Notes: generated from the letters alone by a model not told the origin. Shown: positions 3,876 through 56,122, numbered from the stretch's first letter. The stretch: 64,000 nucleotides of DNA from Candidatus Nomurabacteria bacterium (GCA_943349945.1 CALQZS010000001.1:130803-194802), one strand, 5' to 3'. Numbers and translations: made by a program.

Positions 3876-4556
3876 ATGTCAAATCGGGCACCCATAGCCA
3901 CGGGCGAGTGGTACCATTGCTACACTCGCGGAGTGGACAAGCGTATCGTCTTTGAAACCCGATCTGACTATGAGCGTTTCTTGGCATACCTTTATATAGG
4001 AAACGGTACCAACCTGCTCCGTCTTTCAAACATACAAGACAAGCGTTTGGTGTCCGTACTCACCAATACACGTCTGCAGCGCGGAGAGCCCTTGGTCGAC
4101 ATAGGCGCATACACCCTTATGCCTAATCATGCGCATTTTATATTACGACAAACACACGACCAGGGCATCGCCACCTTTATGCAGCGAGTTTTTACTGGAT
4201 ATACACAATACTTCAACAACAAACACGAACGGACGGGAGCGCTCTTTTCAGGAACATACAAGTCGAAACACATACTGGACGACCGCTATCTAAAGCAAGT
4301 AACTGCCTATGTATTGCTAAACCCGGTGGAATTATTTGAACCCGCATGGAAAGAAGGAGTGGGCAACTTGAACCACATCGAAAAACAGGTTCGCACCTAT
4401 CCTTATTCTAGTCTCGTTGATTTTTATGGGTCACAGCGCCCAGAAAGCAGTATCACGACAAACACGCTGCACGCGTACTATGATCAGCGTCCTAGCCTTA
4501 CAGACATGCTTGCGGACGCGCAGGCATTTTATAGAGAACACGAGCCTAAAGCTTGA
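3876..4556 (+). CDS. REP-associated tyrosine transposase-like (RAYT, IS200/IS605-family Y1 HUH) protein
   Basis: HUH motif YTLMPNHAHFIL with a catalytic-Tyr region. It is flanked by family-A REPs. The start is probably MSNRAPIATGEWYH at 3876. Confidence 0.75.
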   Translation: MSNRAPIATGEWYHCYTRGVDKRIVFETRSDYERFLAYLYIGNGTNLLRLSNIQDKRLVSVLTNTRLQRGEPLVDIGAYTLMPNHAHFILRQTHDQGIATFMQRVFTGYTQYFNNKHERTGALFSGTYKSKHILDDRYLKQVTAYVLLNPVELFEPAWKEGVGNLNHIEKQVRTYPYSSLVDFYGSQRPESSITTNTLHAYYDQRPSLTDMLADAQAFYREHEPKA

Positions 4557-4655: not shown

Positions 4656-5870
4656 CTAGATGCTGGTGGTGCTGCTGTAGATAGGGAGCAAGACTGCCGC
4701 CAACAAAAAGCCCACACCCACCGCAAGCGCCACAATAAGCACAGGTTCGATGAGCGACACCAAAGTGTCGACCGCTGCATTTACCTCGCGGTTATAGAAC
4801 TTGGCCATACGCTCCAAAATGTTGCCCAACTCGCCTGTTTCTTCACCGATCTGGAGCATCTGCACCATAATGGCTGGTATTTCGTCTGGATATTGCGCAA
4901 GCGTCTGCGACATAGGACTACCGGCCTTCACTCCTTCGAGCGCTTCGAGCAAAATGGTTTGGTAGACTGCGTTTTCTATAACTGACGAAGTGATTTCGAG
5001 TGAGCGTACTGCCGATATACCGGAAGACAACATCACATGCATGTTGTCTGCAAAGCGAGACAGGTAGAGTTTTTGGTAGAGTGTGCCCACGTACGGAATA
5101 GAGAGCTTTGCACGCGCCATACTAAGTCGTCCACGCGGCGTCTGGCTGTAGCGATACAAAAAGTATCCGCCGATAATAAGCGCCACGAACAAGAATATGC
5201 CATAGTCGGTCAAAAACGCACTAAAGCCAAGTATGACTTTGGTGTATACGGGCAACTCCTGCCCACTTTCCGACAAAATAGAACCTATTTTTGGAATAAC
5301 CACCGTAAGCATCAGCGTCATCACCGCAAAGAAAGTAAAGAGAATGAACGCCGGGTAGATGAGCGCATTGCGAGCCTTGGAAGTCAGCTCGTAGGAGCGG
5401 TCTATGTAGTCGGCCAAAAATTGGAAGGTCTGGTCGAGCTTGCCGGACTCCTCGCCTGCACGAACCATGTTGACATAAAAGTCAGAAAAAACTTTAGGGT
5501 GCTTTACCAGCGCTTTGGAGATGCTGTTACCCGCCTGCAAGTCGTCGCTTATTTCGGTAAGAACCGTGCGCAAGTAGGGCTTTTCTGCCTGCTCGGCCAA
5601 CAAACGGAAAATACGCAGTGCAGAAACTTGCGCCTCGAACAAGGTCGCCAACTGGCGAGAAAGGAGCACCACATCGCGGCCAGTTACGCCGCCAAAAAAT
5701 GGCAGCTGCACGGTCAAACCATGTAGTCCTTTTGGCGCATCGCTGGTGAGCGCCGTGATGGTAAATCCTTTGCGCTGCAGCGACTCAATAGCCGCGTCTT
5801 GTGTGGCAGCGTTTACTACACCGGCTTGTGCCTTTCCTGCTTGGTCGAGTGCTTCGTATTTAAATTCCAT
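4656..5870 (-). CDS. pilC: type IV pilus assembly inner-membrane platform protein (GspF/PilC family)
   Basis: 404 aa with two T2SSF-like domains and a TM topology typical of PilC. Confidence 0.9.
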   Translation of the reverse strand: MEFKYEALDQAGKAQAGVVNAATQDAAIESLQRKGFTITALTSDAPKGLHGLTVQLPFFGGVTGRDVVLLSRQLATLFEAQVSALRIFRLLAEQAEKPYLRTVLTEISDDLQAGNSISKALVKHPKVFSDFYVNMVRAGEESGKLDQTFQFLADYIDRSYELTSKARNALIYPAFILFTFFAVMTLMLTVVIPKIGSILSESGQELPVYTKVILGFSAFLTDYGIFLFVALIIGGYFLYRYSQTPRGRLSMARAKLSIPYVGTLYQKLYLSRFADNMHVMLSSGISAVRSLEITSSVIENAVYQTILLEALEGVKAGSPMSQTLAQYPDEIPAIMVQMLQIGEETGELGNILERMAKFYNREVNAAVDTLVSLIEPVLIVALAVGVGFLLAAVLLPIYSSTTSI

Positions 5871-22627: not shown

Positions 22628-22714
22628 CGGAGAGAGCGAGATTCGAACTCGCGGGCCCAATTAAGGGCCGACAGTTTAGTAAACTGTTGATTTAAACCAC
22701 TCATCCATCTCTCC
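22628..22714 (-). tRNA. type II (long variable arm) tRNA, Ser-like, anticodon apparently ACU
   Basis: Acceptor GGAGAGA/TCTCTCC, T-arm GCGAG-TTCGAAT-CTCGC, variable arm GGCCC-TTAATT-GGGCC, and anticodon stem ACAGT/ACTGT with loop TTACTAA. Confidence 0.7.
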
Positions 22715-22926: not shown

Positions 22927-23011
22927 GGAGACGTGTCAGAGTGGTCGAATGTGCCTCCTTGCTAAGGAGGTAGGGCGCAAGCCCTCGTGGGTTCGAATCC
23001 CACCGTCTCCG
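22927..23011 (+). tRNA. tRNA-Ser (GCU)
   Basis: Acceptor GGAGACG/CGTCTCC, anticodon loop TTGCTAA between CCTCC/GGAGG, long variable arm, and T-arm GTGGG-TTCGAAT-CCCAC. Confidence 0.85.
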
Positions 23012-31637: not shown

Positions 31638-31710
31638 ATATAGAGACGGATGAGAGCCTCTACTCTTTCATCGCCTACCTATTCTACCCTATACAACCCG
31701 TACACTAGAC

Positions 31711-31745
31711 GCAAAAACACCACCCCTAAACAGGGTGGTGTTTTT
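31711..31745. terminator. bidirectional rho-independent terminator (terminates the minus-strand hammerhead-containing transcript)
   Basis: caccacccctaaacagggtggtg flanked by an A-run and a T-run (gcaaaaa / ttttt). Confidence 0.6.
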
Positions 31746-31855
31746 AAACATCCATAGGGCCACGAGCCATGCACAGTGGTTAGAGGAGAGAGTTTTTTGC
31801 TCCGTCTTGGCTAGTGCAATTTGGAGCTTCTCACACAGCGTGACTCATGACCCTA

Positions 31856-31909
31856 TAGAGATTTTTACCTTTTCGTCCTTTTGGACTCATCAGCCCGGGC
31901 ACACACCCG
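31856..31909 (-). ncRNA. hammerhead ribozyme, type III topology
   Basis: Minus-strand RNA: GACUUUC^CUCGGG-UGUGUG-CCCGGG-CUGAUGA-GUCC-AAAA-GGAC-GAA-AAGGU. All core nucleotides are present: C3-A9 CUGAUGA, G12A13A14, A15.1:U16.1, cleavage-site C17, and G10.1:C11.1. Stem I is a 6-bp hairpin, stem II a 4-bp hairpin, and stem III is an open 5-bp helix. Predicted cleavage is between window positions 31903/31902. Confidence 0.7.
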
Positions 31910-32009
31910 AGGAAAGTCGGACGACACGCAGCGTTGTTGCGCCGTGTCGCCCGTTAGCCCCGGACTAGCCGGGGCGGCCGGGGATGATTTTGCGGTAATC
32001 ATCCTGTTG

Positions 32010-32402
32010 TTAGGTGCCGCATATAGCGGCCACGAACTGCTTCGCAAGTTCTTGGCGATTCAGTTCTGACGCCCGATCGTCGCTGGGGACGCACGGGGAC
32101 TTAGTTAACCCGTACGCCAAAGAAGCGTAACTCACCGCCATCGACGGATTGTAACCGCCCCAAAAGCGAGCGGCCTCAGCCGCTGCCAGAACGGCGAACT
32201 TCTTCGCCGCCTGTGAGTCCTCAATGGACACATCGAATGGTCGGTCAGCGTGACCGAAAACCCCAAAAAGGGCCCTTTCGATTTCATAGAGTACCCGCTC
32301 TGAAATCTCTCCACCCACTATCATCCATTGGACGACCTGTGGGTTGGGCATCCACAGCCCAGCGACAACAAGCGCTGCCATTCGCGCATGTACTATTGTC
32401 AT
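32010..32402 (-). CDS. hypothetical protein (130 aa) embedded in the ribozyme/leader locus
   Basis: RBS ACGGAGAG 5 nt before the ATG. Third-position GC is about 59%, comparable to a neighbouring real gene (Maf, about 63%). No recognisable family. Coding status needs confirmation. Confidence 0.45.
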   Translation of the reverse strand: MTIVHARMAALVVAGLWMPNPQVVQWMIVGGEISERVLYEIERALFGVFGHADRPFDVSIEDSQAAKKFAVLAAAEAARFWGGYNPSMAVSYASLAYGLTKSPCVPSDDRASELNRQELAKQFVAAICGT

Positions 32403-32592
32403 TTTACTCTCCGTTTTTTTGAGCGTTGGATTTTGCCAACGCTCGGGTTTAGAACATCAGGGTGCAATTTCTTGCGATCCCTCTTGCCGCACCGAGCATT
32501 AGAGTGCATCCATCTGCACTAGGCAGACAGGCTCATGACTCGGTAAGGCGAAGAGGAACAACAAAGGTGATCTTTCGATCGTTTGTTATTTC

Positions 32593-32634
32593 CCGACGCC
32601 AATATTTGGGTCGGGATCCCGACTTTGCGGGATC
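32593..32634 (-). promoter_or_regulatory. mutually exclusive hairpin set in 5' leader (attenuator/riboswitch-like expression platform)
   Basis: Three overlapping alternative helices: cccgac...gtcggg, gtcgggatcccgac, and gatcccg-acttt-cgggatc. Confidence 0.35.
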
Positions 32635-32773
32635 TATTCGCTATTCTTTTGTCAAAGAATGTCTCTCTTTCGAGAGAAGTCGGATGGCAAAATGGGCCAA
32701 ATATAAAAGATGTGCCTTTTGCCGTCCGGCTTCTCCCTACGACTCTCTCCTCTAAGAGGTAATCGTTAAACCC

Positions 32774-32802
32774 ATTATACCCCCTTATTCCGAGTTTGTC
32801 AA
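32774..32802 (-). promoter_or_regulatory. consensus sigma70 promoter (TTGACA-17-TATAAT) driving leader and 130-aa ORF
   Basis: Minus strand reads cTTGACAaactcggaataagggggTATAATggg, a perfect -35 and -10 with a 17-nt spacer. It lies about 360 nt upstream of the ORF start. Confidence 0.6.
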
Positions 32803-32889
32803 GTAGTTCGAGGCGCTCATAACCAAACAGGCAAAATAGCCCTATACATAAGGCTTTTTAGGCACTCTAGAGCCTGCCTTGCTTTGTAG

Positions 32890-36531: not shown

Positions 36532-36603
36532 TGGGCGCGGCAGGGATTGAACCTGCGACCAGTCGTGTATAAGACGACCGCTCTACCACTGAGCTACGCG
36601 CCC
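36532..36603 (-). tRNA. tRNA-Ile (UAU)
   Basis: Acceptor GGGCGCG/CGCGCCC, D-arm GCTCAGTGGTAGAGC, anticodon stem GTCGT/ACGAC with loop CTTATAC, and T-arm GCAGG-TTCAATC-CCTGC. Confidence 0.75.
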
Positions 36604-41325: not shown

Positions 41326-41586
41326 ATGTCTTGGACTGTATATATCCTATATAGCTTAAAAGATAAGAGGTTGTATGTAGGCTGTACTTCTGATCTTGAG
41401 AAAAGGATTGGGAGGCACAGCAAAGGATATGTATTAGCCACTTCTCATCGAAGACCTTTGGTTTTGATTCATTCAGAATTATTCAAACAAAAAGGAGAAG
41501 CTTTTCAACGAGAGAGATTTTTGAAAAGCCTTTGGGGAGCACGAGAAAAGAAAAAGATTCTAAAAAAGTACTTAGAATCAGAATGA
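41326..41586 (+). CDS. GIY-YIG nuclease family protein (small, homing-endonuclease-like)
   Basis: YILYSLKDKRLYVGCTSDLEKRIGRH GIY-YIG motif, in an AT-rich insert. Confidence 0.8.
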   Translation: MSWTVYILYSLKDKRLYVGCTSDLEKRIGRHSKGYVLATSHRRPLVLIHSELFKQKGEAFQRERFLKSLWGAREKKKILKKYLESE

Positions 41587-41590
41587 ATTG

Positions 41591-41656
41591 GGCTAAAACG
41601 ATTACCATGCAATCGTTCGCCCGAACAAATCTTGGCACAAGATTTGTTTTAGGGGG
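41591..41656 (+). repeat. direct repeat copy 2 (duplicated smpB 3' end remnant) abutting ssrA
   Basis: ggctaaaacgattaccatgcaatcgttcgcccgaacaaatcttggcacaagatttgttttaggggg. Confidence 0.5.
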
Positions 41657-42018
41657 ATGCCAGGCCTAGACAATGAAGACGCCTGTTGAATGCGCGCAGT
41701 AGAAGTCTGGACCTTCTTAAAAATCCGGAAACAATAACTGCAAAAAACAGTGTTTCGCCGTATTTCGCGGCGAACGACTTCCAGTTCGCGTTCGCGCGAG
41801 CGTAAGTCGCATCTACCCTTCCTCTCTCTTGCGGGTTGGGATAGGTGTTATATAGCAAGAGTATAGTTGCAAGAGCCGCTCTGACTTGCATCCGAACATA
41901 AGAGCTGCAGGAAGTTATGATTTCGTTTGCTTTGCCCATAACAGCCTAAAGAAACAACAAGCGAACTACACTACGTAGAAGCTTCAGCAGCACTTCATTG
42001 CACGGCGGTTCAATTCCG
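41653..42018 (+). ncRNA. ssrA: tmRNA (ssrA)
   Basis: 5' GGGGAUG pairs with 3' CAUCUCC-A, including a G3:U wobble. T-arm GGCGG-UUCAAUU-CCGCC. The tag ORF GCG GCG AAC GAC UUC CAG UUC GCG UUC GCG CGA GCG UAA encodes (A)ANDFQFAFARA. A terminator follows. Confidence 0.8.
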
Positions 42019-42319
42019 CCCATCTCCACATAAAAATAAAACGCGCCCATAGTTGGGTGCTTTTTATTTTCCCTGTCACCTCTGCCCCACTCGGCGAGTT
42101 GTCATAAGTGTCTAGCAATAAAACAAACACACCATGGAACACTTGAGTTAAGCCGAGGAGGCTGCCACCCCAAGGGGACGCGGCCTCCTCGGCGCACATG
42201 GTGCGTTTTGCACCCCTGTTTTTTGCATATGCACACAGATGGTGGTATGTTCAAAAAACGTACAGCGTTTGTTTGTTACGTACTGCACGTCCTAACTCAA
42301 GACTATTTGGGGAAAGCCG

Positions 42320-55521: not shown

Positions 55522-55524
55522 TTA

Positions 55525-55556
55525 AAAAGCCGTCGCAATTGCGACGGCTTTTCCCT
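55525..55556 (+). terminator. rho-independent terminator (first of two tandem hairpins)
   Basis: aaaagccgtcgcaattgcgacggcttttcc. A second hairpin, atacataggccgggcctatgtat plus a T-run, follows at about 55561-55592. Confidence 0.55.
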
Positions 55557-55582
55557 TTAAATACATAGGCCGGGCCTATGTA

Positions 55583-56122
55583 TTATTTTTTGAATGGGAG
55601 CCCCAAGTGCGCCAAGTAGGCGTGCGCTTGTTTTTTGCCTTTTGCAGTAGTAACGATAGTTACCGCCATGCCGAATACGTCCTTAAGCTCTTCGTCTGCA
55701 GTCTCGGGGAACACTGAGTGCTCGCGGATACCTAGGGTGTAGTTGCCCATCTCGTCGATTGCGGTTGCAGAGATGCCTTTAAAGTCTTTGGTGCGAGGAA
55801 GTGCCACGTGTATGAGGCGGTTAAGGAAGTCTTGTGCGCGTTTACCGCGGAGTGTTACTTGGTAGCCTACGCGGTCGCCGATACGTGTCTTGTAGGTAGC
55901 GATGGACTTCTTTGCACCGCGAGTCACCGGCTTTTGGCCAGTAATGGTTGCAAGACGCTTTGCCACCAGCTCGACTTTTTGCTTGTCCTTTGCCATCTTA
56001 CCCACACCCACAGAGACAACCACCTTGGCTACCTTAGGTACTTGCATGACGTTCTTCCACCCAAAGTCGGCTTTGAGCGCATCAAATGTTGTTTTTTGCT
56101 GTTCTTGTAAAAGGTTTGCCAT
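55583..56122 (-). CDS. rplE: 50S ribosomal protein L5
   Basis: 179 aa. Confidence 0.9.
   Translation of the reverse strand: MANLLQEQQKTTFDALKADFGWKNVMQVPKVAKVVVSVGVGKMAKDKQKVELVAKRLATITGQKPVTRGAKKSIATYKTRIGDRVGYQVTLRGKRAQDFLNRLIHVALPRTKDFKGISATAIDEMGNYTLGIREHSVFPETADEELKDVFGMAVTIVTTAKGKKQAHAYLAHLGLPFKK

What the first reader, a model, noticed from the sequence alone, without database searches (positions are those of the whole stretch)
31856..31909. Canonical type III hammerhead self-cleaving ribozyme in the 3' region of a minus-strand transcript
The minus strand reads 5'-GACUUUC^CUCGGG-UGUGUG-CCCGGG-CUGAUGA-GUCC-AAAA-GGAC-GAA-AAGGU-3'. Every invariant hammerhead core nucleotide is in the correct order.
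- Stem I is a closed 6-bp hairpin (CUCGGG/CCCGGG, one U:G pair).
- Stem II is a closed 4-bp hairpin (GUCC/GGAC).
- Stem III is an open 5-bp helix (GACUU... with AAGGU pairing to UUUC).
This is type III topology. It sits about 100 nt downstream of a 130-aa ORF stop and about 110 nt upstream of a strong terminator, so self-cleavage would trim the 3' UTR. A chance CUGAUGA followed by a hairpin and then GAAA, with compatible flanking stems, is very unlikely in 128 kb of two-strand sequence.
Basis: partly seen in the sequence, partly recalled or inferred. Interest (0 to 1): 0.85.

Follow-up and report, generated by a model that had tools for sequence, protein, structure and literature searches.

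The report
Hammerhead ribozyme ending a small operon
A real, evolutionarily conserved self-cutting RNA (a type III hammerhead) follows the last gene of a small accessory operon in an uncultured Patescibacteria-type bacterium, where it would cut a conserved structured RNA free from the messenger; the ribozyme is a known kind, but its setting is unusually informative.

Summary
The complete type III hammerhead lies on the minus strand at 31917-31867, with predicted cleavage between C31912 and C31911. It is very unlikely to be chance: 0 of 4000 dinucleotide shuffles give a comparable motif. Four further variants in related metagenomic loci keep the core invariant, change stems only in pair-preserving ways, and carry their indels in loop 2. 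Rfam Hammerhead_3 matches full length at only 31 bits (gathering score 48.5; window-level E = 0.012).

The ribozyme closes a small accessory operon: a perfect sigma-70 promoter, a leader, a 130-aa orphan ORF, an 11-bp hairpin, the hammerhead, a conserved 109-nt long-stem RNA and a terminator. This operon is inserted between the malic-enzyme and ECF-sigma genes in one narrow clade only. Cleavage would leave the mRNA ending in a hairpin and release a roughly 200-nt 5'-OH RNA. A loop of that RNA is perfectly complementary over 14 nt to the operon's own 5' leader.

In sister strains an unrelated, covariation-supported hairpin sits exactly where the hammerhead sits here. The window copy has lost a loop-2 extension that its relatives keep, so its efficiency in the cell is uncertain. 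Verdict: a new member of a known kind, of moderate interest.

The parts
32774..32802 (-). Sigma-70-type promoter, TTGACA-17 nt-TATAAT (12 of 12 matches); the predicted transcription start is near 32767
   Evidence: The region is homologous to the operon promoter region in L003, L005, L010, L011 and L021.
32403..32773 (-). 5' leader of about 370 nt. It contains the 14-nt site UUAGAGGAGAGAGU (32755-32742) and, just before the ATG, a conserved hairpin plus Shine-Dalgarno segment (32450-32409). It is a deletion derivative of a longer multi-gene operon.
32010..32402 (-). 130-aa orphan ORF, the last cistron of the operon. It has no Pfam or PHROG match. Homologues are 76%, 69%, 61% and 41% identical.
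31918..31953 (-). Stable hairpin (11 bp plus 2 bp) directly abutting stem III. [quoted passage not shown]
   Evidence: (fold). Hairpins of unrelated sequence sit in the same position in L007 and L008.
31867..31917 (-). Type III hammerhead ribozyme; the scissile bond lies between C31912 and C31911
31751..31859 (-). Conserved long-stem RNA: a helix of about 23 bp with five invariant G.U pairs, enclosing a CU-rich loop. The loop segment ACUCUCUCCUCUAA (31793-31780) is complementary to the leader.
31712..31745 (-). Intrinsic terminator (CACCACCC/GGGUGGUG stem followed by a U-run)

Best explanation
Window 31917-31867 (minus strand) encodes a genuine type III hammerhead ribozyme that has been kept by selection. 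It is the final RNA-processing module of a small accessory operon. The operon consists of a sigma-70 promoter (32802-32774), a leader, a 130-aa orphan ORF, an 11-bp hairpin, the hammerhead, a 109-nt long-stem RNA and a terminator. It is inserted between the malic-enzyme and ECF-sigma genes in one narrow clade of an uncultured Patescibacteria (CPR) lineage.

Once transcribed, stems I-III fold around the CUGAUGA...GAA core and the RNA cleaves itself between C31912 and C31911. This would give two products.
(i) The ORF mRNA, ending in the upstream hairpin plus ACUUUC with a 2',3'-cyclic phosphate.
(ii) An RNA of about 200 nt with a 5'-OH (31911 to about 31712), made of the ribozyme body, the conserved long hairpin and the terminator.

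The second product carries a loop segment that is perfectly complementary over 14 nt to positions about +13 to +26 of the operon's own leader. The likely purpose of cleavage is therefore to uncouple this RNA from the mRNA so that the two have separate fates, and so that the RNA can pair with the 5' end of operon transcripts.

Shown here: the motif, its conservation, the exact module boundaries, the conserved downstream structure and the complementarity. Inferred: transcription, catalysis in the cell, the role of the 3'-terminal hairpin in stability, and any regulatory effect of the 5'/3' pairing.
For: Core and stems:
- All core nucleotides and all three stems are present, with no mispair next to the core.
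- This is the only such motif in the window. The strict descriptor gives 0 hits in 4000 dinucleotide shuffles.
- RF00008 aligns full length; E = 7.5e-5 locally and 0.012 for the window.

Conservation:
- There are five sequence variants in orthologous loci (window/L001, L002, L003/L004, L007/L021/L024, L022/L023).
- All have an invariant core and C17.
- Stem changes are only pair-preserving: stem I U.G to U-A, stem III U.G to C-G, stem III A-U to G.U.
- There is one loop-1 change and a 16-nt loop-2 insertion that is itself a hairpin.
- G.U pairs in stems I and III fit only the minus-strand RNA.

Module boundaries:
- In L007 the homology starts inside the 5' strand of stem III (window 31914), although the ORF and the sequence upstream are unrelated.
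- In L005 the homology resumes 3 nt after the hammerhead's 3' end (31864).

Context:
- An independent type III hammerhead in a Magasanikbacteria MAG (L008) has a completely different but fully paired stem I. It has the same layout of small ORF, hairpin, hammerhead and terminator.
- The non-coding stretch from the pre-ribozyme hairpin through the long stem is 92-94% identical between loci whose neighbouring genes are 73-88% identical at the DNA level.
- The downstream RNA folds into a long stem with one compensatory pair.
- The 14-nt leader/3' RNA complement is matched by 0 of 2000 shuffles and is invariant in all loci that cover both sites.

Literature: bacterial hammerheads flanking small non-conserved ORFs, and ribozyme processing in 3' UTRs, have been described (PMC6155905, PMC3088659, PMC6765202).
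Against: - There is no experimental cleavage or transcript data.
- The RF00008 score (31.0 bits) is well below the gathering score (48.5). The relatives score 25.5 and 22.1 bits.
- Within the orthologous set all stem changes are one-sided (G.U to Watson-Crick or the reverse). There is no double compensatory change, and only five variants exist.
- L008 was found with a pattern that fixed stem II and the 3' strand of stem III, so identity in those parts is by construction.
- The window copy has lost the stem II extension. Its CACA/CGCA bulge could pair with loop 1 UGUG in the relatives, so the tertiary contact needed at physiological Mg2+ may be weakened.
- In the window, the hammerhead fold is 2.7 kcal/mol above the minimum-energy fold in a 108-nt context. 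A 66-nt fragment prefers an alternative hairpin.
- Sister strains do without the hammerhead.
Confidence: 0.75

Rival explanations
1. Relic ribozyme. The lineage inherited a working hammerhead, but the window copy is catalytically crippled in the cell because a 16-nt deletion removed the stem II extension and the partner of loop 1. The motif survives only because the deletion is recent, or because the sequence now serves merely as a structured spacer in front of the conserved 3' RNA.
For: L002, L003, L007 and L022 all keep the extension, and only the window/L001 type has loop 2 = AAAA. The bulge CACA (CGCA in L002) is complementary to loop 1 UGUG, and the A-to-G change preserves that pairing. 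[quoted passage not shown] The hammerhead fold is not the minimum-energy fold in the window. Sister strains replace the hammerhead altogether.
Against: The core, C17 and all three stems are intact in the window copy. The same sequence recurs in an independent sample (L001), and the adjacent ORF is on 13 contigs. Minimal hammerheads still cleave in vitro. An A-rich loop 2 facing a U-containing loop 1 can still make non-Watson-Crick contacts, as in other natural type III hammerheads (my own knowledge, not tested here).
Confidence: 0.15
2. Conserved for another reason. The stretch is kept because it is part of a larger structured RNA, or because it is a DNA-level site (for example a recombination or cassette junction). 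On this view the hammerhead-like fold is incidental and not catalytic.
For: The whole interval from about 31956 to 31751 is 92-94% identical across loci, not only the hammerhead. The locus behaves like a cassette system with swapped ORFs and swapped 3' elements. A 14-nt inverted repeat lies about 125-130 nt inside each end of the insertion.
Against: General conservation does not explain a perfect hammerhead core that is expected by chance in fewer than 1 in 4000 windows. It also does not explain why the substitutions fall on pair-preserving positions, or why G.U pairs make the structure strand-specific. The L007 and L005 boundaries delimit exactly the ribozyme. An unrelated CPR genome has the same ribozyme in the same layout with a different stem I.
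Confidence: 0.06
3. A chance match to the hammerhead consensus with no biological meaning.
For: The Rfam score is below the gathering threshold. A loose descriptor occurs about 0.017 times per 64-kb window, roughly once per few Mb.
Against: Zero of 4000 shuffles match at the observed quality. The motif is conserved with structure-preserving variation in at least four further lineages and in a different upstream context.
Confidence: 0.02

Closest known systems
Bacterial genomic hammerhead ribozymes (types I, II and III) in intergenic regions flanking small non-conserved ORFs (de la Pena & Garcia-Robles 2010; Perreault et al. 2011, PMC3088659; review PMC6155905)
   Same: The catalytic core is canonical and meets the acceptance rules of Perreault et al. 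(no mispair next to the core). It lies in an intergenic region next to a small orphan ORF of unknown function, within an accessory, horizontally mobile-looking gene block. The presumed role is processing of a polycistronic or operon transcript.
   Different: No phage or integrase link was found here. The host is an uncultured Patescibacteria/CPR lineage. There is a single ribozyme at the operon's 3' end rather than a cluster. It directly precedes a strongly conserved structured RNA whose loop is complementary to the operon's own 5' leader. In sister strains it is replaced by an uncharacterised hairpin rather than by a known ribozyme class.
Rfam RF00008 Hammerhead_3 (seeded mainly on viroid, satellite-RNA and plant sequences)
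   Same: Same topology (stem III open), same core, and typical stem lengths (6 bp in stem I, 4 bp in stem II). The alignment covers model positions 1-54 in full.
   Different: It scores 31.0 bits against a gathering score of 48.5, and the relatives score 25.5 and 22.1 bits. Stem III differs from the model consensus, and loop 2 is either shorter or much longer than the model's. It is encoded in DNA on a bacterial chromosome and is not part of a rolling-circle RNA replicon.
Ribozymes in bacterial 3' UTRs (twister examples, Felletti et al. 2017, as cited in PMC6765202)
   Same: A self-cleaver placed between the stop codon and the terminator, so that cleavage removes the terminator hairpin from the mRNA and can change mRNA stability or expression.
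   Different: The ribozyme class is different. Here a dedicated hairpin lies immediately upstream of the cut, and the released 3' fragment is itself conserved.
3'-UTR-derived small RNAs released by RNase E (for example CpxQ and SroC in enterobacteria; from my own knowledge)
   Same: A conserved RNA that ends at the mRNA's own terminator and is released from the 3' end of a coding transcript by endonucleolytic cleavage.
   Different: Release here would be autocatalytic, giving a 5'-OH rather than a 5'-monophosphate. The apparent target is the same operon's own leader. No function has been shown.

Membership tests
Hammerhead ribozyme class, type III topology | Core strand C3-U4-G5-A6-N7-G8-A9 between stems I and II | tested here: met
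   CUGAUGA at 31893-31887, and invariant in all six variants
Hammerhead ribozyme class, type III topology | Core strand G12-A13-A14 between stems II and III, with an A15.1-U16.1 pair closing stem III | tested here: met
   GAA at 31874-31872; A31871 pairs with U31913
Hammerhead ribozyme class, type III topology | The cleavage-site nucleotide H17 is not G | tested here: met
   C at 31912, and C in all variants
Hammerhead ribozyme class, type III topology | Three helices around the core; stems I and II closed by loops and stem III open; no mispair at 1.1-2.1, 10.1-11.1 or 15.1-16.1 (rejection rule of Perreault et al. 2011) | tested here: met
   Stem I has 6 bp (C-G next to the core), stem II has 4 bp (G10.1-C11.1) and stem III has 5 bp
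Hammerhead ribozyme class, type III topology | Helices maintained in relatives by structure-preserving or compensatory change | tested here: met
   Three substituted stem positions in the orthologues all keep pairing, but each change is one-sided. Stem I of L008 differs at all six pairs and is fully complementary. The sample is small: five orthologous variants plus one.
Hammerhead ribozyme class, type III topology | Loop 1-loop 2 tertiary contact that supports fast cleavage at physiological Mg2+ | tested here: inconclusive
   The relatives have a candidate UGUG/CACA (CGCA) pairing between loop 1 and the stem II bulge. The window copy has loop 2 = AAAA and lacks it.
Hammerhead ribozyme class, type III topology | Site-specific, Mg2+-dependent self-cleavage giving 2',3'-cyclic phosphate and 5'-OH ends | not testable with these tools
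   Needs in vitro transcription and cleavage assays, or mapping of 5'-OH and cyclic-phosphate ends
Rfam RF00008 (curated model; an inclusion threshold, not a defining property of the ribozyme class) | Bit score at or above the gathering score of 48.5 | tested here: not met
   31.0 bits in the window, 25.5 in L007 and 22.1 in L008. The model is dominated by viroid and plant sequences, so I do not treat this as disqualifying for the class.
Prophage-associated bacterial ribozyme clusters | Proximity to integrase or phage genes, or several ribozymes flanking the genes | tested here: not met
   No viral-contig, phage-record or PHROG match. The window has a single hammerhead. However, several copies of an unrelated conserved hairpin flank the small ORFs in sister loci.
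Twister, twister-sister, pistol, hatchet and HDV-like ribozymes (considered for the hairpin that replaces the hammerhead in L005 and L009-L012) | A match to the family covariance model | tested here: not met
   No hit at E <= 10 in L005:4385-5165

The most novel reading that the evidence does not exclude
The hammerhead and an unrelated conserved hairpin are interchangeable processing modules. The hairpin has the form CCCUUUUAA-GYR-P2-RAU-UUAAAAGGG and is followed by GGGGAAUGUUCCCC. In sister strains it sits exactly in the hammerhead's slot, and it also sits at other junctions between the small ORFs.

Twister, pistol, hatchet and twister-sister were all found because they share genetic contexts with hammerheads. 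By the same reasoning, this hairpin could be a new, very small class of self-cleaving ribozyme. Failing that, it could be a dedicated RNase site of equivalent function.

Whichever module is present would release a 3' RNA of about 200 nt that pairs through 14 nt with the 5' end of its own operon transcript. That would give a concrete biological role for a bacterial hammerhead.
Probability: 0.15. Interest if true: 0.85.

Novelty: new member of a known kind. Interest (0 to 1): 0.5.

Why it matters
Thousands of bacterial hammerheads are catalogued, yet apart from glmS the biological role of bacterial self-cleaving ribozymes is described as largely elusive (PMC6765202). This locus is small and offers clear tests.
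- **One ribozyme, one cut.** A single ribozyme at a defined position would produce a defined, conserved product.
- **An apparent target.** That product has a 14-nt perfect match to the operon's own leader.
- **Natural variants.** Some strains have an extended stem II, the window strain has a truncated one, and others have the ribozyme replaced precisely by a different conserved hairpin.

The locus also extends type III hammerheads to Patescibacteria/CPR genomes. The replacing hairpin is a candidate to test for self-cleavage.

Tried and rejected
- **Rfam at gathering thresholds:** no hammerhead. The match appears only in E-value mode.
- **Rfam on five whole loci at once:** the filters and E-value scaling hid even the known hammerheads. 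Short-range scans recovered them.
- **Genome-collection scan with the ORF alignment:** no relative found.
- **Two metagenome-collection DNA scans:** zero hits, although L003 would match the first pattern, so the relevant samples are not in that collection.
- **Phage link:** no viral-contig match, no phage-record match and no PHROG match for nine small ORFs, so I rejected a prophage context.
- **Pfam on the 130-aa ORF:** nothing.
- **AlphaFold model of the 130-aa ORF from four sequences:** mean pLDDT 51, too poor for a fold search, so abandoned.
- **Suspected tRNA fragment upstream of the L007 hammerhead:** ARAGORN found none.
- **Homologues of the L007 108-aa ORF:** only the protein itself.
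- **Replacing hairpin against all Rfam ribozyme families:** no hit at E <= 10. A comparison with the minimal twister-sister-like ribozymes (PMC11620745) could not be established from the text, so I make no claim.
- **MAFFT alignment of the hammerheads:** it misplaced L008 and the window's stem II, so pairs were tabulated by hand and each string was searched for in the data; all matched except L007's, whose upstream flank I had mistyped, and L007's hammerhead was extracted directly from the locus later.
- **14-nt inverted repeat as terminal repeats of a transposon:** the repeat does not extend beyond 14 nt and lies about 125-130 nt inside the insertion boundaries. This reading is not favoured, but it is not excluded.

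Full report
**1. The observation**

The stated interval drops the first nine nucleotides, including the cleavage site, and adds eleven at the 3' end.

The corrected anatomy is:
- stem III: ACUUU (31917-31913) with AAGGU (31871-31867)
- C17: 31912
- stem I: CUCGGG (31911-31906) with CCCGGG (31899-31894), loop 1 UGUGUG
- core: CUGAUGA (31893-31887)
- stem II: GUCC with GGAC, loop 2 AAAA
- GAA: 31874-31872

The scissile bond is therefore between 31912 and 31911, not 31903/31902. The G.U pairs in stems I and III would be A.C mismatches on the other strand, so the structure fits only the minus-strand RNA.

**2. Is it more than chance?**

- A loose type III descriptor (stems of at least 4, 3 and 4 bp) finds only this site in the window. 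It finds about 0.017 sites per shuffled window. That would not be impressive across a whole-genome scan.
- A descriptor that demands the observed quality gave no hit in 4000 dinucleotide-preserving shuffles.
- Rfam reports no hammerhead at gathering thresholds. In E-value mode, RF00008 Hammerhead_3 aligns over its full length at 31.0 bits. That corresponds to E = 7.5e-5 on 401 nt and 0.012 on the whole window, against a gathering score of 48.5.
- No other ribozyme family appears in the window.

**3. Comparative evidence**

The adjacent 130-aa ORF has homologues at 76%, 69% and 61% identity, and BLAST between the loci adds one at 41%. I obtained more loci by fetching the contigs of these homologues and of orthologues of the downstream ECF sigma factor. 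One genome-wide DNA pattern scan added two more.

The hammerhead occurs in five sequence variants: window/L001, L002, L003/L004, L007/L021/L024 and L022/L023. Across these variants:
- the core and C17 never change;
- the three substituted stem positions all keep pairing (stem I U.G to U-A in L002; stem III U.G to C-G in L003, L007 and L022; outermost stem III pair A-U to G.U in L007);
- one change lies in loop 1 (L022);
- the only large difference is a 16-nt insertion in loop 2, which itself forms a 4-5 bp helix.

All stem changes are one-sided and the sample is small, so this supports selection on the fold without proving it.

The pattern scan also found an independent type III hammerhead in a Magasanikbacteria MAG (L008). 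Its stem I differs at all six pairs yet is fully complementary. Its stem II and the 3' strand of stem III were fixed by my search pattern. Its stem I, the 5' strand of stem III and C17 were not.

**4. Module boundaries**

A BLAST map of the whole unit gives three results.
- In L007, the upstream ORF (108 aa) and the sequence before the ribozyme are unrelated to the window. Homology begins at window 31914, inside the 5' strand of stem III.
- In L005, which has no hammerhead, homology resumes at 31864, three nucleotides past the ribozyme's 3' end.
- So recombination treats the hammerhead as a discrete module, and it stays attached to the RNA downstream of it.

In three sequence-unrelated cases (window type, L007 type, L008), a stable hairpin lies directly upstream of stem III. 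[quoted passage not shown]

**5. The setting**

The window is a bacterial chromosome carrying RecG, malic enzyme, an ECF sigma factor with a DUF5667 partner, an ABC transporter, tmRNA and tRNAs. Source names on the sigma-factor homologues, together with the labels of L007 and L008, place the lineage in the Patescibacteria/CPR.

A perfect TTGACA-17-TATAAT promoter lies at 32802-32774. In L003, L005, L010 and L021 the homologous promoter and leader are followed by three to five more small orphan genes before the last cistron. The window and L002 carry an internal deletion of those genes.

More distant relatives (sigma factor about 70% identical) keep the RecG, malic enzyme and sigma gene order with nothing in between; the gap is 54 nt in L015. 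The operon, hammerhead and RNA are therefore an accessory insertion limited to one narrow clade. I found no phage connection.

**6. What is cut off**

The non-coding stretch from the pre-ribozyme hairpin through the long stem (31956-31752) is 92-94% identical between loci. The neighbouring genes in those loci are only 73-88% identical at the DNA level.

The part downstream of the ribozyme (31859-31751) folds into a helix of about 23 bp. The helix has five invariant G.U pairs and one compensatory U-A/C-G pair. It encloses a CU-rich loop and is followed by a terminator.

The loop segment ACUCUCUCCUCUAA (31793-31780) is the exact complement of UUAGAGGAGAGAGU in the leader (32755-32742). That site lies about 13-26 nt from the predicted transcription start. 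No shuffled leader in 2000 reached 14 nt. Both sites are invariant in every locus that covers them, even where the flanking sequence differs.

Cleavage would therefore release an RNA of about 200 nt with a 5'-OH that can pair with the 5' end of its own operon transcript. This step is inference.

**7. The replacing element**

L005/L006, L009, L010 and L011/L012 include the window's closest relatives by sigma factor (95% identity), and one of them comes from the same sample as L001. In these loci the hammerhead slot holds a different element: CCCUUUUAA-GYR-P2-RAU-UUAAAAGGG, followed by GGGGAAUGUUCCCC.

Ten distinct copies exist. Some of them also lie between the upstream small ORFs, including in the hammerhead-bearing L003. 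Covariation supports both helices:
- P2 pair 2: U-A, A-U and G.U
- P2 pair 4: C-G and G-C
- P2 pair 6: U-A and C-G
- P1 pair 5: U-A and C-G
- an invariant U.G in P2 makes the element strand-specific

It matches no Rfam family at E <= 10. The window has no intact copy, only the 3' remnant of one at the deletion junction in its leader.

Reviews note that unrelated self-cleaving classes share genetic contexts in bacteria, and that this observation led to the discovery of twister-sister, pistol and hatchet (PMC6765202, PMC6155905). By that reasoning the hairpin is a candidate self-cleaver or an equivalent RNase site. I rate it only as a candidate.

**8. Caveats on activity in the window**

All relatives carry the stem II extension. 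Its 3' bulge (CACA, or CGCA in L002) is complementary to loop 1 UGUG. The window/L001 type has lost the extension.

The hammerhead fold is 2.7 kcal/mol above the minimum-energy fold in a 108-nt context, and a 66-nt fragment prefers an alternative hairpin. The core is intact, so cleavage in vitro is likely. Efficiency in the cell is uncertain.

**9. Verdict**

This is a new member of a known kind: bacterial genomic type III hammerheads next to small orphan ORFs (PMC3088659, PMC6155905). It does not reach Rfam's gathering score.

Three features of the setting raise its interest above that of a routine ribozyme hit. It lies in a CPR accessory operon. It is swapped precisely with an uncharacterised conserved hairpin in sister strains. 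It would release a conserved RNA that is complementary to the operon's own leader.

Noticed in passing
window 32755-32742 and 31793-31780 (minus strand): A 14-nt perfect complement links the operon's 5' leader (UUAGAGGAGAGAGU, about +13 to +26) with a loop of the conserved 3' RNA (ACUCUCUCCUCUAA). None of 2000 shuffles reaches 14 nt. Both sites are invariant in all related loci that cover them. It could be RNA-RNA pairing (autoregulation or end-to-end pairing) or a DNA-level inverted repeat.
   Followed up: partly
L005:3893-3946, 4430-4490, 5074-5147; L009:221-268, 1351-1404, 1897-1990; L010:2136-2190; L011:2712-2775; L003:3578-3655, 3894-3945: A conserved RNA hairpin supported by covariation (CCCUUUUAA-GYR-P2-RAU-UUAAAAGGG, usually followed by GGGGAAUGUUCCCC) lies at junctions between small ORFs. 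In several strains it sits exactly in the slot the hammerhead occupies in the window. It matches no Rfam family. It is a candidate processing site or ribozyme.
   Followed up: partly
window 31751-31859 (minus strand): A structured RNA of 109 nt (helix of about 23 bp with five G.U pairs and a CU-rich internal loop) lies between the hammerhead and the terminator. The non-coding stretch that contains it is 92-94% identical across lineages, more conserved than the flanking genes. It matches no Rfam family.
   Followed up: partly
window 32403-32860 (minus strand): A perfect consensus sigma-70 promoter is followed by a leader of about 370 nt. The leader is a deletion derivative: in L003, L005, L010 and L021 the same promoter and leader are followed by three to five more small orphan genes (about 142, 87, 120 and 83 aa) before the last cistron.
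   Followed up: partly
window about 31650-32880, compared with L013, L015, L017 and L019: The whole small-ORF operon is an insertion between the malic-enzyme and ECF-sigma genes. More distant relatives keep RecG, malic enzyme and sigma with nothing in between (a 54-nt gap in L015). The last cistron can be swapped (130-aa family or an unrelated 108-aa ORF), and strains bearing the hammerhead and strains bearing the hairpin occur in the same sample, ERZ27280309.
   Followed up: partly
L008:6976-7640 (minus strand), Magasanikbacteria MAG CALRGC010000001.1: An independent type III hammerhead has the same layout: TTGACA-17-TATTAT promoter, an orphan ORF of about 117 aa, a hairpin, the hammerhead and a terminator. 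The cassette GC content is 0.49 against 0.39 for the rest of the locus, which suggests horizontal acquisition.
   Followed up: partly
L002:3032-3563; L021:10043-10327: Other accessory genes lie at or near the same hotspot in relatives: a 91-aa ORF plus a weak ParE-toxin-like 83-aa ORF next to malic enzyme in L002, and a ThsB_TIR-domain gene a few kb downstream in L021.
   Followed up: no
window 41653-42031 (+); 22628-22714 (-) and 22927-23011 (+); 36532-36603 (-): A tmRNA (101.9 bits, with a long insertion relative to the model) and three tRNAs. Two of the tRNAs have long variable arms and are divergently arranged about 210 nt apart.
   Followed up: no
window 55523-55585 (-) and 41537-41620 (+): Sub-threshold Rfam matches (Leu_leader at 31.8 bits, E = 0.012; HIV_GSL3 at 31.3 bits just upstream of the tmRNA). 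These are probably hairpins or terminators rather than family members.
   Followed up: no
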